In this document: in pieces, positions 13,140-27,709 of the stretch | Numbering within the stretch: position 1 is the first letter of the stretch | Layout: each line of letters opens with the position of its first letter | Source: a virus | Length of the DNA stretch: 41,330 bases | Strand: one strand, 5' to 3' | IMG/VR virus record: IMGVR_UViG_3300045988_084973 | The notes under the pieces: model-generated | What the model was told of the DNA's origin: nothing | What the model saw: only the letters and a program-made list of their open reading frames with translations | Database searches by the model: none | Made by a program: the position numbers and the translations under genes

Positions 13140-13312
13140 TGTAAGGCAACAAACGCAACAAAACACCAAGCCCAGACAGCTATATGCCTGAACTAAATGC
13201 TATTACGTATCTGACAACTACAATATAGCACGTTTTGTAAACATTTGCAACACCTTACACTGCCGCGACAGCAAAAAAAATCCGTCTGCTGTTCGTTAGC
13301 AGACGGATTTTT
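13140..13312 (+). ncRNA. Candidate leader RNA or small RNA of about 170 nt, running from the early promoter to the intrinsic terminator
   Basis: Predicted start just downstream of TATAAT. The 5' TGTAAGG (13140..13146) can pair with CCTTACA (13253..13259) just before the terminator. No credible ORF. Confidence 0.35.
13273..13312. terminator. Intrinsic terminator, bidirectional in form (A-run, 10-bp stem, T-run), inside the early leader
   Basis: AAAAAAAA TCCGTCTGCT gttcgtt AGCAGACGGA TTTTT. Confidence 0.8.
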
Positions 13313-13641
13313 CCCAAAGTTTTTTACCAGAACAAGTTTGCAGCAACGGAACCGCTCAATGTGAGCGGGCAAGTACACGGTCCTTTGTGCAATGCGCATC
13401 CGCTGCTTGCAAAACGAACTTGCAATTCTGTGGACTTGCCGTAACCTTTGGCAGCTTTGGGGCAGCCGTTTAAGCCATAGCGCGTTACGCAATTTCTTTA
13501 GTCTGGAACTGGCATACTCAAAAGTTGGGTCAAGGGACGACCACCTTCCTTTCTGCCTTACTCTGGCAATTCAGATTATAGCATATTGTGTCGCGGCAGT
13601 CAATTTTGTTTACTTCTAATTTTTACTAGGGAGGTGAAAAA

Positions 13642-25700: not shown

Positions 25701-25885
25701 CAAAACAGCAACTAGTTGACGAATACGCCCGAGAACATCTTTGCGCGACATGCGAGTGGAAGAATGGCAATATTTGCACGCTGCCGCGCTGCATGAAAGT
25801 GGAAGAAAGGAGATACAATGACCCGAGAAGAATTCAACCAAAAGAAAACGTGGCTATGGAGATACCAACGCAGCAGGAATCATGA
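25697..25885 (+). CDS. Cys-rich small protein; overlaps the start of the next gene
   Basis: ATGA overlap. CATCEWKNGNICTLPRC. Confidence 0.4.
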   Translation: MTKQQLVDEYAREHLCATCEWKNGNICTLPRCMKVEERRYNDPRRIQPKENVAMEIPTQQES

Positions 25886-26249
25886 ACGGCAGCTGCGCCA
25901 GCAGATACAGAGCGAACGTGAACGAGCAGCAGCGACAACTAAAGCATTATCCCCCGTTGTGGTGTCTGCTGGCGGTAAAAATAAAATCGAGGATGCCGTT
26001 TGCAGAATCATGGAGCGTCAAGAAGCTCTATACAAGCAGATTATTGACACCGAGATGCAAAGGGAAGAAATTGAAACCGTAATAAACTCTGTGCAAGACC
26101 AAATGCAGCGGGACGTTTTGCGGGAGCGGTATATTGTCGGCACACCGTATTGGTGGAAAATTGCGATAAATCTAAATATTTCCGAGCGATGGGCAAAAAA
26201 ATTACACCGCGCTGCAATTGAAAATCTGTGCACTCCAGTTCACTTTTAA
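25818..26249 (+). CDS. Sigma-70 region-4-like late transcription regulator (DUF1492/RinA-ArpU-type position)
   Basis: AAGGAG RBS. ..RDVLRERYIVGTPYWWKIAINLNISERWAKKLHRAAIENL. Last gene before the packaging module. Confidence 0.7.
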   Translation: MTREEFNQKKTWLWRYQRSRNHERQLRQQIQSERERAAATTKALSPVVVSAGGKNKIEDAVCRIMERQEALYKQIIDTEMQREEIETVINSVQDQMQRDVLRERYIVGTPYWWKIAINLNISERWAKKLHRAAIENLCTPVHF

Positions 26250-26379
26250 TCTGTTATTATAGATATGCTGGATGATGTAGGAACGGGACAGCCTACGACA
26301 TTGCTAAAACCTCTTTTCTTTATTGTTTCAATTCTCCTATTCTTATAGCTGGCAGCCCGGAAAGACGGGCATTTTATAT

Positions 26380-26461
26380 GCCGCATAGCCAATCGCAAGA
26401 TAAGGGCGCTACGCTTAGAAGCGACCGCGTAGAAATGGTGTGAGACCTATGTGCGGCTCCA
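26380..26461 (+). ncRNA. tRNA-like element A (82 nt): 7-bp acceptor-type helix, T-loop-like hairpin, encoded TCCA end
   Basis: GCCGCAT pairs with GTGCGGC, followed by T and CCA. GG-TGTGAGA-CC hairpin. The core does not fold as a canonical cloverleaf. Confidence 0.5.
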
Positions 26462-26610
26462 AGGCCATGCAATGGGTCTGTCCTATCCGTAAGGGACGAA
26501 ACTTTTCCCCGCATCTGCTGGCGGGTAAGTTCAGCAGAACCGTGCCGGGTCAAGGCTGGCGCTGCTGGCTTCTGCAACAAGAGTCGTTCCTGAGCGGCGC
26601 TATTTTATAT

Positions 26611-26715
26611 GCTGCATAGCCAGCCGCAAACTTGGCCTGACAAGTCAATACGGCAAGGGCGCTGCGTTCCGCAAGCTACGGCGTGGCAAAGGTGCAAGAC
26701 CTATGTGCAGTACCA
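26611..26715 (+). ncRNA. tRNA-like element B (105 nt), paralogue of element A, with an encoded ACCA end
   Basis: GCTGCAT pairs with GTGCAGT, followed by A and CCA. Blocks shared with A: TTTTATATGCyGCATAGCCA, AAGGGCGCT, AGACCTATGTGC. Confidence 0.5.
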
Positions 26716-26879
26716 GAGGTCGGGTAGCGCCCGAACGATGTGAGCGTGTATGGCATACCTCACCCAGAATAAAAATGCCTGCTGAAAACTATCGGAATGG
26801 ATGGTACGTAACGTCTGTTCGTGAAAGAGACCATGACTCTCAAGTAGACGATAGATAATCTAAGCGGGAAGCCTACCAT

Positions 26880-26955
26880 GCTGGATTAACTCAACTGGTA
26901 GAGTATCTGTTTTGTAATCAGACGGTTCGGGGTTCAAGTCCTCGATTCAGCACCA
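26880..26955 (+). tRNA. tRNA-Thr (anticodon UGU), CCA encoded
   Basis: Manual cloverleaf: GCTGGAT/ATTCAGC acceptor, ACTC/GAGT D stem, loop TTTGTAA, CGGGG-TTCAAGT-CCTCG T arm. 76 nt. Confidence 0.85.
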
Positions 26956-27198
26956 ATGCCGATGATACGGGTAAAGGTAGCAGGGCCGGACGCGGCAATT
27001 GTGTTCCCCGTTAGGCAACCGCCACGAGCCTACTGACAGTGCGTAACATGTGGCGGATTCTGCAATACAGGGTGGCTCTCTGCCGTGGAAGTCGGCCAAC
27101 TTTAGCTGAAACATTGCTATGGATTGCCAAGCCAAACAGGTTCATGCCGATATGCCCCGCTAAAGAAACTTGCAGGGCAGAGCGCATGAGCCTTATAT

Positions 27199-27282
27199 GC
27201 CAACATAGCTTAACTGGTAAAGCCGGGCCTCATGACAGCATAGCTGCGGGTTTAGTTGCGGGTTCAAATCCTGCTGTTGGCG
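27199..27282 (+). ncRNA. tRNA-like element C, or a pseudo-tRNA: canonical acceptor, D and T arms and a CTCATGA segment, but no anticodon stem
   Basis: GCCAACA/TGTTGGC, GCTT-AACTGGTA-AAGC, GCGGG-TTCAAAT-CCTGC. The 34 nt between the D and T arms cannot form a 5-bp stem around CAT. Confidence 0.5.
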
Positions 27283-27681
27283 AAAGCTGGGTCGCTCCCA
27301 CCGGTGAAAGCCCGGCGCAGGCAAAACGCGATAGCTAACCTGAACGCTATAAGCAAAGCGGCAAGCCGATACGGAGCGCGGAGCGATGGCAAGACGCAAC
27401 GGGACTGTGAGAGCCTGAAAACTTTTGCCCGCACAGTGAAGTGCGAAACCAAACTTCAACCGCGAATCGGTGCGCGGGTATAAATGCCGCCGGATGCCGC
27501 AAGCCCGGGCGGGGTACAAATGCAGGGAATCAAAAAGCGCGTGGACAGCAGGCACGTTAAATTCTGACTGTACAAAAGCGTTGCGGATTTGCTCACCGCA
27601 ACGGGTGAGACCGGCACAGCATAAACCGGTAGGGCGGGAACGCGCTTTTCCTCCGGCGCAAAGGGGTTCTGGGGGATATAA

Positions 27682-27709
27682 GCCTACACAAATTGTGTGG
27701 GCTTTTTGT
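27682..27709 (+). terminator. Rho-independent terminator just upstream of terS
   Basis: GCCTACACA aat TGTGTGGGC followed by TTTTT. Confidence 0.75.

What the first reader, a model, noticed from the sequence alone, without database searches (positions are those of the whole stretch)
26371..26715. Two CCA-ending tRNA-like paralogues with a compensatory acceptor-helix substitution and a shared leader motif
Element A (26380..26461) and element B (26611..26715) both start with GCyGCATAGCCA and end with AGACCTATGTGCrG-N-CCA. In each, the 5' 7-mer pairs with the 7-mer just before N-CCA, as in a tRNA acceptor stem with a discriminator base and encoded CCA.

Position 3 of this helix is C:G in A (GCCGCAT/GTGCGGC) and U:A in B (GCTGCAT/GTGCAGT). 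That is a double, compensatory change and argues for selection on the helix.

Both elements also have a GG-(T-N-N-R-A-G-A)-CC hairpin that keeps the T-loop positions 54 and 58 (T and A). However, neither core (64 and 87 nt) folds into canonical D or anticodon arms. A can form either CTACGC/GCGTAG or GGCGCT/AGCG-A-CC.

All three tRNA-like units (A, B and C at 27199) are preceded by TTATATGC, whereas the genuine tRNA-Thr is not.

Possible roles, all speculative: decoys for tRNA-targeting host defences, primers or handles for an RNA-processing enzyme, or domains of a larger RNA.
Basis: seen in the sequence. Interest (0 to 1): 0.75.

Follow-up and report, generated by a model that had tools for sequence, protein, structure and literature searches.

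The report
Non-decoding tRNA-like RNAs in gut phage
The two elements are real members of a previously undescribed, conserved family of tRNA-shaped RNAs that cannot decode codons; they occupy the same slots as genuine tRNAs in a long non-coding array of a human-gut (Gemmiger-type) phage and most likely act as tRNA-style RNA-processing signals.

Summary
Observation confirmed. A (26380-26461, 82 nt) and B (26611-26715, 105 nt) are two members of one RNA family ("X"), found 187 times (81 distinct sequences, 76-121 nt) in related human-gut phage contigs.

Comparative analysis gives a tRNA-like four-way junction:
- a 7-bp acceptor stem, then a discriminator base and an encoded CCA;
- a 3-bp D stem whose loop takes variable, covarying hairpin insertions;
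- a 7-bp anticodon-like stem with a 12-13-nt loop and no anticodon;
- a T arm that keeps U54, A58 and G53-C61.

Across the family, 97.7% of cells are paired and 14 pairs show double changes. ARAGORN (including relaxed settings) and Rfam tRNA (E<=10) never call it, and no Rfam family matches.

Every copy follows a GC hairpin plus an AU-rich leader, with U at -1. X and genuine tRNA-Thr/Ser/Trp precede the same downstream structured modules interchangeably. A further module is always preceded by some tRNA or anticodon-arm-less tRNA-like element.

Best reading (inferred, not shown): X is cut out by RNase P and 3'-end processing like a tRNA, and punctuates a ncRNA/tRNA array that lies between the DUF1492-family gene and terS and ends in the D12-methyl RNA. 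A trans-acting tRNA mimic remains possible.

The parts
26355..26379 (+). GC hairpin (GCCCG-GAAAGA-CGGGC, 26355-26370) plus AU-rich leader AUUUUAUAU, ending directly at the 5' end of A
   Evidence: Terminator-like site. The stem covaries (GCCCG/CGGGC versus GCCGG/CCGGC). Five unrelated hairpins occupy this place in relatives, and U is at -1 in 66/68 contexts.
26380..26461 (+). Element A (family X, 82-nt form). Acceptor 26380-26386 / 26451-26457; A8 26387; D stem 26388-26390 / 26405-26407; D-loop mini-hairpin ATC-GCAA-GAT 26392-26401; anticodon-like stem 26408-26414 / 26427-26433 with 12-nt loop 26415-26426; T stem 26434-26438 / 26446-26450; T loop UGUGAGA 26439-26445; U73 26458; CCA 26459-26461
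   Evidence: CM hit of 73.3 bits. Segment parsing and pair tables. Not called by ARAGORN or Rfam tRNA.
26462..26610 (+). Module S1: a conserved structured spacer that ends in hairpin 26583-26598 plus leader GCUAUUUUAUAU, which abuts B
   Evidence: 15 distinct variants, nearly all directly followed by an X copy (three divergent variants and one truncated copy are the exceptions). Also present in a phage whose DUF1492 protein is only 55% identical. Terminator-like site.
26611..26715 (+). Element B (family X, 105-nt form). Acceptor 26611-26617 / 26705-26711; A8 26618; D stem 26619-26621 / 26658-26660; D-loop insertion hairpin 26622-26657 (stems 26623-26626/26651-26654 and 26630-26634/26641-26645); anticodon-like stem 26661-26667 / 26681-26687 with 13-nt loop 26668-26680; T stem 26688-26692 / 26700-26704; T loop UGCAAGA 26693-26699; A73 26712; CCA 26713-26715
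   Evidence: The RNAfold MFE is a cloverleaf. CM hit of 130.2 bits. Covariation in all helices.
26716..26879 (+). Module S2, the spacer between B and tRNA-Thr
   Evidence: The same module start (GAGGTCGGGT / GAGGGCAGGG) follows X of five size classes in relatives.
26880..26955 (+). Genuine tRNA-Thr(UGU) with encoded CCA
   Evidence: ARAGORN; Rfam tRNA 61.8 bits.
26956..27198 (+). Module S3 (starts AUGCCGAUGA)
   Evidence: In relatives this module is preceded by tRNA-Thr or, interchangeably, by X of 82-111 nt.
27199..27283 (+). Element C: tRNA-like, with canonical acceptor, D and T arms, but the anticodon arm is replaced by an irregular hairpin and no CCA is encoded
   Evidence: Rfam tRNA 45.3 bits, with a 29-nt insert in place of the anticodon arm. 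The ARAGORN call 'His(atg)' rests on a non-pairing stem.
27284..27704 (+). Module M (27284-27578), D12-methyl RNA (27579-27642) and intrinsic terminator (27680-27704), which close the array before terS
   Evidence: Rfam D12-methyl 94.4 bits. Terminator. M directly follows a tRNA or tRNA-like element of at least 9 kinds in 55 of 57 distinct contexts.

Best explanation
A and B are two copies of a phage-encoded, tRNA-derived but non-decoding RNA (family X).

Architecture. X keeps the parts of a tRNA that the tRNA-maturation machinery reads:
- a 7-bp acceptor helix, a discriminator base and an encoded CCA;
- a T arm with U54, A58 and G53-C61;
- a D-stem/anticodon-stem stack of tRNA-like length (3 + 7 = 10 bp).

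It has no anticodon loop. Its D loop tolerates hairpin insertions of up to about 50 nt.

Context. X lies on the + strand inside a roughly 1.4-kb non-coding array between the DUF1492-family gene (which I take to be the late-gene regulator) and terS. In this array, tRNAs and tRNA-like elements alternate with structured modules. The array ends with the D12-methyl RNA and a terminator.

Proposed mechanism (inferred):
1. The array is transcribed as one precursor.
2. RNase P cuts at G1 of every tRNA or tRNA-like unit. This leaves the upstream module with a hairpin-oligoU 3' end.
3. The 3'-processing enzymes cut after the CCA (or after the discriminator in CCA-less units such as C).

X would therefore work as a 't-element', a dedicated punctuation mark that releases and stabilises the neighbouring RNAs, and would itself accumulate as a 76-121-nt CCA-ended RNA.

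Shown: the fold, its conservation, its strand, its non-tRNA status and its interchangeability with real tRNAs.
Inferred: transcription as one precursor, cleavage by RNase P and the 3' enzymes, and the punctuation role.
For: Structure
- On 34 distinct sequences, 97.7% of cells are paired. Fourteen pairs show changes on both sides, and 0 of 500 shuffles reach the observed values. Slid controls give only 26-42% paired.
- RNAalifold recovers the same four helices independently.
- RNAfold gives a cloverleaf for B and for the 76-nt form.
- Acceptor pairs 1, 3, 4, 5 and 7 covary, as do D-stem pair 3 and anticodon-like-stem pairs 3, 4 and 7.
- Many G.U pairs exist only on the + strand, which fixes the strand.

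Features RNase P reads
- U at -1 in 66 of 68 contexts, with a hairpin plus AU-rich leader.
- NCCA in 78 of 80 distinct sequences.
- Dependence of bacterial RNase P on the 3' RCCA motif and on the N(-1) residue is established (abstract of PMC12710915).

Syntax of the array
- The same downstream modules follow X or genuine tRNA-Thr, tRNA-Ser or tRNA-Trp interchangeably.
- Recombination joints fall exactly at the CCA.
- Module M is directly preceded by a tRNA or tRNA-like element of at least 9 kinds, including a 58-nt form with no anticodon arm at all.
- Loop content is not fixed. The anticodon-like loop has 18 variants and is replaced by a pentaloop in L199.
Against: - No expression or end-mapping data are available, so processing is inferred only.
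- A mere processing handle would not need the anticodon-like arm. Yet that arm is always kept. Its 26 nt are identical between the two deepest branches (76-nt and 104-nt forms), although their acceptor and T stems differ. The D-loop hairpins are also maintained by compensatory changes. All this hints at a function of the RNA itself.
- An encoded CCA blocks RNase Z in Bacillus subtilis (established knowledge). The enzyme that would cut after the CCA in this host is therefore unknown.
- Strong terminator-like hairpins sit directly upstream of X, so transcription into X needs read-through or antitermination. That has not been shown.
Confidence: 0.5

Rival explanations
1. X is a trans-acting tRNA mimic. 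After tRNA-like maturation, the free CCA-ended RNA binds a host or phage factor through its conserved anticodon-like arm and/or its acceptor end. It could be a decoy or inhibitor for anti-phage enzymes that attack tRNA anticodon loops or 3' ends, or a regulator of a tRNA-binding protein.
For: - The 26-nt anticodon-like arm is identical across the deepest split of the family, while the acceptor and T stems diverged by compensatory changes.
- NCCA is almost invariant.
- X is the most ubiquitous unit of the arrays. It is present in about 60 of 66 close relatives and in most D12-methyl contigs.
- The D-loop hairpins are kept by covariation.
Against: - The loop is not strictly conserved: there are 18 variants, A's loop differs at 5 of 12 positions, and L199 has a pentaloop.
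- Some relatives have lost X together with most of the array.
- No complementary target in the phage exceeds chance.
- No RNA-binding or tRNA-related protein was found among the 26 ORFs scanned against Pfam.
- A stoichiometric decoy would have to compete with the whole cellular tRNA pool.
Confidence: 0.25
2. X is not a separate RNA. It is the 5' domain of a larger structured RNA (X plus the following module, or the whole array), comparable to large phage-associated RNAs that lie next to tRNAs.
For: - The whole 1.4-kb stretch is non-coding and conserved in blocks.
- CCA is an anti-determinant for RNase Z in B. subtilis, so X might stay attached to what follows (established knowledge).
Against: - X recombines freely with at least six different downstream modules, and the joints fall exactly at the CCA.
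- Genuine tRNAs in the same slots must be released to function.
- There is no Rfam match to GOLLD, ROOL or any other large RNA at E<=10.
Confidence: 0.1
3. X is a decaying tRNA pseudogene, with no function of its own.
For: - The arrays contain obviously degraded tRNAs, such as the truncated tRNA-Met in L192.
- The 5' and 3' ends of X resemble those of the neighbouring tRNA-Thr.
Against: - Compensatory substitutions occur in four helices, and 97.7% of cells are paired across 34 distinct sequences.
- X sits at a fixed position in phages whose neighbouring DUF1492 protein is only 55% identical.
Confidence: 0.05
4. X is a genuine, aminoacylated decoding tRNA of unusual shape.
For: - The 76-nt form has exactly the length of a canonical tRNA, with the T loop at positions 54-60.
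- X has an encoded CCA and occupies tRNA slots in the array.
Against: - The anticodon-like loop is 12-13 nt, with no U33 or R37 frame and a variable centre (AAGC, ACGU, GAGC, AAAC). It is absent in L199.
- No tRNA model fits.
- The terL, portal and terS ORFs are intact under the standard code, so no recoding calls for a special tRNA.
Confidence: 0.03

Closest known systems
Canonical bacterial/phage tRNA (Rfam RF00005)
   Same: 7-bp acceptor stem, discriminator base, encoded CCA, T loop with U54/A58 and G53-C61, four-way junction, U-rich 5' leader. It sits in tRNA slots of a phage tRNA cluster, and the 76-nt form has the length of a tRNA.
   Different: Only one base between the acceptor and D stems. 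The D stem is 3 bp, and the D loop is replaced by hairpins of up to about 50 nt. The D stem abuts a 7-bp stem with a 12-13-nt loop that has no anticodon. There is essentially no variable loop. Position 55 is G, and the T stem has an A.A mismatch. No tRNA detector finds it.
Plant mitochondrial t-elements and mitochondrial tRNA punctuation (PMC1920247, PMC3790967)
   Same: tRNA-like structures without a decoding function, embedded in longer transcripts, whose cleavage by the tRNA-processing enzymes defines the ends of neighbouring RNAs. This is the mechanism proposed here.
   Different: Those are organellar and flank mRNAs. Here the host is a bacteriophage, the neighbours are structured non-coding modules, and the element encodes its own CCA. 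Processing has not been demonstrated for X.
mascRNA / menRNA of MALAT1 and NEAT1 (Rfam RF01684; PMC8457004)
   Same: A tRNA-like cloverleaf with a defective anticodon arm, cut out by RNase P and RNase Z, which sets the 3' end of the upstream RNA. The small RNA then accumulates separately.
   Different: Those are eukaryotic, CCA is added after cleavage, and there is no sequence relation. The Rfam mascRNA model matches only the genuine tRNA-Thr here, weakly.
Phage T4 RNA C and RNA D (PMC3014915, PMC9697503)
   Same: Small stable RNAs of unknown role encoded inside a phage tRNA region and expressed late.
   Different: No sequence similarity was detected. A BLASTN search of 50,697 GenBank phage records found only tRNA-Thr matches. 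Their structures were not compared here.
D12-methyl RNA (Rfam RF02950)
   Same: Co-resident on the same non-coding array in nearly all contigs examined.
   Different: It is a separate 64-nt two-hairpin motif at the 3' end of the array, and it is not tRNA-like.

Membership tests
tRNA (RF00005) | 7-bp acceptor stem, discriminator base and 3' CCA | tested here: met
   Pair tables over 80 distinct sequences; NCCA in 78 of 80.
tRNA (RF00005) | 5-bp anticodon stem with a 7-nt loop (U33, anticodon, R37) | tested here: not met
   The stem is 7 bp and the loop is 12-13 nt with a variable centre. L199 has a pentaloop instead.
tRNA (RF00005) | D arm: two linker bases (8, 9), a 3-4-bp stem, and a 7-11-nt loop with G18 G19 | tested here: not met
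   There is one linker base (A8) and a 3-bp stem. The D loop is 7 to 53 nt and mostly a hairpin insertion. G18 G19 are not conserved as loop bases.
tRNA (RF00005) | T arm: 5-bp stem and a 7-nt loop T54-Psi55-C56-R57-A58 | tested here: inconclusive
   U54, A58 and G53-C61 are near-invariant and C56 is usual. However, position 55 is G and the stem carries an A.A mismatch. In B-type copies the outer pairs are weak.
tRNA (RF00005) | Recognised by tRNA covariance or heuristic models | tested here: not met
   No Rfam tRNA match at E<=10 for the 76-121-nt forms. ARAGORN finds nothing at default settings, with -ps50 to -ps70, or with introns allowed.
t-element / mascRNA-type processing signals (functional class) | tRNA-like fold without a decoding arm, embedded in a longer transcript at the boundaries of other RNAs | tested here: met
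   Fold. Boundary position and interchangeability with real tRNAs.
t-element / mascRNA-type processing signals (functional class) | Cleavage by RNase P at the 5' end and by a 3' endonuclease in vivo | not testable with these tools
   Only indirect evidence: U(-1), the NCCA end and the acceptor/T minihelix.
tmRNA | tRNA-like domain joined to a tag-peptide reading frame and pseudoknots | tested here: not met
   ARAGORN tmRNA search at default thresholds finds none in the window. There is no Rfam tmRNA match.
Any Rfam 15 family (including Y RNA-like, GOLLD, ROOL, T-box) | Covariance-model match | tested here: not met
   No match over A, B or relatives at E<=10.

The most novel reading that the evidence does not exclude
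X is a purpose-built tRNA mimic that acts in trans during late infection. It would be matured by RNase P and carry a genuine CCA end but could not decode. Through its conserved anticodon-like arm and acceptor end it would engage a tRNA-binding factor. One example is a decoy or inhibitor of anti-phage nucleases or transferases that attack tRNA. The swappable D-loop hairpins would tune specificity. This would be the first dedicated non-decoding tRNA decoy described in a bacteriophage.
Probability: 0.25. Interest if true: 0.85.

Novelty: new variant of a known kind. Interest (0 to 1): 0.62.

Why it matters
Phage tRNA genes are usually discussed only in terms of codon supply or escape from tRNA-cleaving defences. 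This phage lineage maintains, under clear structural selection, a tRNA-shaped RNA that cannot decode. It also uses tRNAs and several kinds of anticodon-less tRNA-like elements interchangeably as boundaries of structured non-coding modules.

If processing is confirmed, this would be a bacterial-virus counterpart of mitochondrial tRNA punctuation and t-elements. It would explain how the orphan D12-methyl RNA and its neighbouring modules get their ends. It would also add a family that current tRNA and Rfam annotation pipelines miss. If X instead acts in trans, it would be a new type of tRNA mimic.

Tried and rejected
- **Standard tRNA with an intron or variable arm.** Rejected: ARAGORN with introns and relaxed scores, and Rfam at E<=10, find nothing at A or B.
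- **Known large phage RNAs (GOLLD, ROOL), T-box, tmRNA, Y RNA-like.** No Rfam match.
- **Cultured or GenBank phage homologues.** BLASTN 'distant' against 50,697 records found only tRNA-Thr matches.
- **GTDB genomes.** The 3' motif occurs in one Gemmiger MAG, plus one hit in a Pseudomonadota MAG that the covariance model rejects, so it is treated as a chance match.
- **Metagenome scan.** All true hits are from human-gut assemblies; the JGI environmental hits were not confirmed by the model.
- **Antisense target for the anticodon-like, D or T loops within the phage.** Nothing exceeds chance.
- **8/4 acceptor/T-stem register suggested by RNAfold for B.** Not supported: A8 faces C in the 76-78-nt forms, whereas the 7/5 register covaries (AAAGG/CCUAU versus GGAGG/CCACC).
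- **Inner 3-bp extension of the anticodon-like stem giving a 7-nt loop in B.** Not conserved, because G61 varies to C or A.
- **T-box-ligand idea.** Dropped, because the loop is too long and too variable to present a specifier-pairing triplet, and no T-box is nearby.
- **attP or DNA-level site.** Unlikely: the integrase is 15 kb away, and the many G.U pairs argue for an RNA on the + strand.
- **Literature.** Full-text searches for the sequences and for phage tRNA-like arrays found no description. A 2023 catalogue of phage structured RNAs could include it, but its data were not available.

Full report
**Setting.** The window is a roughly 41-kb temperate siphophage genome. Pfam identifies an integrase, ERF, SSB, DnaB, RusA, an HNH endonuclease, a DUF1492-family protein (25818-26249), and then terS, terL and the portal from about 27.7 kb. 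I take DUF1492 to be the late-gene regulator from background knowledge of that family; no tool result names its function. No credible ORF lies between the DUF1492 stop codon and terS, a stretch of about 1.45 kb from 26250 to 27700. The only genome in the GTDB collection that carries the element is a Gemmiger MAG, and all confirmed metagenomic copies come from human-gut assemblies.

**Checking the observation.** A is 26380-26461 and B is 26611-26715. Each closes with a 7-bp helix followed by a discriminator base and CCA. Pair 3:70 is C-G in A and U-A in B, and pair 1:72 is G-C in A and G.U in B. In the 1.5-kb region only three such closures exist (A, B and the real tRNA-Thr), against 0.95 +/- 0.98 in shuffles. 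ARAGORN reports only tRNA-Thr(UGU) at 26880-26955 and an odd 'tRNA-His(atg)' at 27198-27283, which is element C. Rfam reports those two plus D12-methyl RNA (27579-27642) and, elsewhere, FuFi-1.

**Relatives.**
- A DNA-pattern scan of IMG/VR retrieved nearly identical copies.
- A covariance model built from A and B found one or two copies in about 60 of 66 phages that share the DUF1492 protein at 95-100% identity. The first copy typically lies about 130 nt after that gene.
- More distant phages, with DUF1492 at 55-80% identity, also carry it.
- Most of the 89 IMG/VR stretches that contain a D12-methyl RNA carry it as well.
- Altogether I collected 187 instances and 81 distinct sequences, in size classes of 76, 77, 78, 82 (A), 90, 91, 98, 100, 101, 104, 105 (B), 111 and 121 nt.

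**Structure.** The comparative model has five parts:
1. A 7-bp acceptor stem, then N73 and CCA.
2. A single linker base, A8.
3. A 3-bp D stem (GCC/GGC, covarying to GCU/AGC).
4. A D loop that ranges from 7 nt to a roughly 50-nt hairpin. All length variation in the family sits here.
5. Directly abutting the D stem, a 7-bp anticodon-like stem with a 12-13-nt loop, then a T arm.

For A, the D loop holds a small ATC-GCAA-GAT hairpin. For B it holds a two-step hairpin whose stems covary strongly (ACUUG/CAAGU, ACUGG/CCAGU, GCUGC/GCAGC). The consensus of the anticodon-like loop is UUCCG(C)AAGC(A/U)ACG, and in A it is UUAGAAGCGACC. The T arm has two G-C pairs, an A.A mismatch and a 7-nt loop UGCAAGR, in which U54, A58 and G53-C61 are near-invariant and position 55 is G.

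On 34 distinct sequences, 97.7% of cells pair and 14 pairs show changes on both sides. None of 500 shuffles reaches these values, and sliding the partners drops pairing to 26-42%. RNAalifold finds the same helices on its own. RNAfold gives a cloverleaf for B and for the 76-nt form, although its MFE for A differs from the comparative model. Over 80 distinct sequences, acceptor pairs 1, 3, 4, 5 and 7 show alternative Watson-Crick or wobble pairs. So do D-stem pair 3 and anticodon-like-stem pairs 3, 4 and 7. Natural chimeras such as ACCGUAU/GUGCGGU keep pairing through G.U. The many G.U pairs would be A.C on the other strand, so the RNA is read from the + strand.

The 76-nt form has exactly the length of a tRNA, with the T loop at positions 54-60. 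The D stem and anticodon-like stem together stack to 10 bp, as D plus anticodon stems do in tRNA. An L-shaped mimic is therefore plausible, but this is inference.

**Why it is not a tRNA.** The anticodon-like loop is 12-13 nt. Its centre varies (AAGC, ACGU, GAGC, AAAC), and a pentaloop replaces it in L199. An inner 3-bp extension that would give B a 7-nt loop is not conserved. The 8/4 register that RNAfold proposes for B fails in the 76-78-nt forms, whereas the 7/5 register covaries. The standard genetic code gives intact late genes, so nothing calls for an exotic decoder.

**Context, which carries most of the functional inference.**
- Every X copy follows a GC-rich hairpin and then an AU-rich run ((A)UUUUAUAU or GAUAUAU). 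Five unrelated hairpin sequences fill this place, and U is at -1 in 66 of 68 distinct contexts.
Genuine tRNA-Trp and tRNA-Ser in sister phages have it too.
- The array is mosaic. Joints between modules fall exactly at the CCA of X or of a real tRNA.
- The same downstream modules follow X or tRNA-Thr, tRNA-Ser or tRNA-Trp interchangeably.
- Module M, which leads into the D12-methyl RNA, is directly preceded by a tRNA or tRNA-like element in 55 of 57 distinct contexts. These are of at least nine kinds: element C, a 58-nt form with no anticodon arm, tRNA-Trp, two tRNA-Thr types and several other degenerate forms.
- The stretch between A and B (S1, 26462-26610) is itself a conserved structured module. 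In nearly all variants it ends in a hairpin plus UAUUUUAUAU and is followed by an X copy.
- Some relatives lack X together with most of the array but keep D12-methyl, so the array is accessory.

**Interpretation.** What is invariant in X is what the tRNA-maturation enzymes read: the acceptor/T minihelix, U(-1) and RCCA. The role of these features for bacterial RNase P is established (PMC12710915 abstract). X also sits in the same syntactic slots as real tRNAs and as anticodon-less tRNA-likes.

The most economical mechanism is tRNA-style punctuation of a polycistronic ncRNA/tRNA precursor. RNase P would cut before G1, leaving the upstream module with a hairpin-oligoU 3' end. A 3' activity would then free the downstream module. 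The closest functional analogues are plant mitochondrial t-elements (PMC1920247), mitochondrial tRNA punctuation (PMC3790967) and mascRNA (PMC8457004). Phage T4's RNA C and RNA D are a loose precedent for orphan small RNAs in a phage tRNA region (PMC3014915).

I give this reading 0.5. Nothing about expression is shown, and the anticodon-like arm is better conserved than a mere handle needs. Its 26 nt are identical between the 76-nt and 104-nt forms even though their acceptor and T stems differ. That keeps a trans-acting tRNA mimic alive at 0.25. The remaining readings are weaker: domain of a larger RNA 0.1, pseudogene 0.05 and true decoder 0.03.

**Dead ends.**
- No homologue among 50,697 GenBank phage records other than tRNA-Thr.
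- No complementary target for the loops in the phage beyond chance.
- No tRNA- or RNA-related enzyme among the 26 ORFs scanned against Pfam.
- No description in the searchable literature.

**Verdict.** The elements belong to a new, well-supported family of non-decoding tRNA-like RNAs. This is a new variant of a known kind. It is of moderate to high interest, and both its processing and its role remain to be tested experimentally.

Noticed in passing
window 27284-27704: Module M (starting GCUGGGUCGCUCCCACCGGUGAAAGCCCGG), the D12-methyl RNA and a terminator may form one roughly 420-nt RNA. In 55 of 57 distinct contexts its 5' edge abuts a tRNA or tRNA-like element, of at least 9 kinds. This may explain how the orphan D12-methyl RNA gets its 5' end.
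   Followed up: partly
window 27199-27283: Element C has good acceptor, D and T arms (Rfam tRNA 45.3 bits). Its anticodon arm is replaced by an irregular hairpin with an AUA triloop, and no CCA is encoded. The ARAGORN call 'tRNA-His(atg)' is probably wrong. In sister phages a 58-nt tRNA-like with no anticodon arm at all sits in the same place (L250:694-751).
   Followed up: partly
window 26462-26610: S1 is a conserved structured module with 15 distinct variants. It contains hairpin 26515-26520/26532-26537, whose loop GCGGG (26521-26525) can pair with CCCGC within the run CCCCGC (26507-26512), a possible pseudoknot. It also has a GUCAAGG T-loop-like hairpin.
   Followed up: partly
window 13276-13490 (- strand): FuFi-1 RNA, 118 bits, a known orphan structured RNA, lies in the early/lysogeny region of the same phage.
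   Followed up: no
window 26355-26370, 26583-26598 and 27680-27704: Three terminator-like hairpins with U tracts lie inside or at the edges of the array, upstream of terS. Transcription into the late genes must therefore read through them, which suggests antitermination or processing-coupled control in which the upstream DUF1492 protein might take part.
   Followed up: no
L244:6494-6574 and L244:7203-7253: A related phage contig carries a twister-sister ribozyme (88.7 bits) and a RAGATH-5 RNA (64.9 bits) elsewhere in its genome.
   Followed up: no
L192:4558-4620 and L192:4924-5010: A more distant relative has a 63-nt truncated tRNA-Met remnant that keeps its acceptor stem and CCA. It also has an 87-nt tRNA-Ser(GCU)-like unit that ARAGORN does not call and that follows a hairpin plus UAUUUAAU leader.
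   Followed up: partly
window 26250-26354: The leader after the DUF1492 stop codon is conserved in all close relatives. It contains UAUUAUAGAUAUGCUGGAU, which resembles the leader plus 5' end of the tRNA-like units. No convincing sigma-70 promoter was found on the + strand.
   Followed up: no
L190, L191 and L192 (downstream of the array): In the more distant relatives, the D12-methyl RNA is followed by ParB_N/N6_N4 methyltransferase genes and by a TAGT (PF20691) gene. A PAPS_reduct gene lies upstream of the array in L188 and L190. These phages may modify their DNA (my inference from the domain families). In the window, terS follows instead.
   Followed up: no
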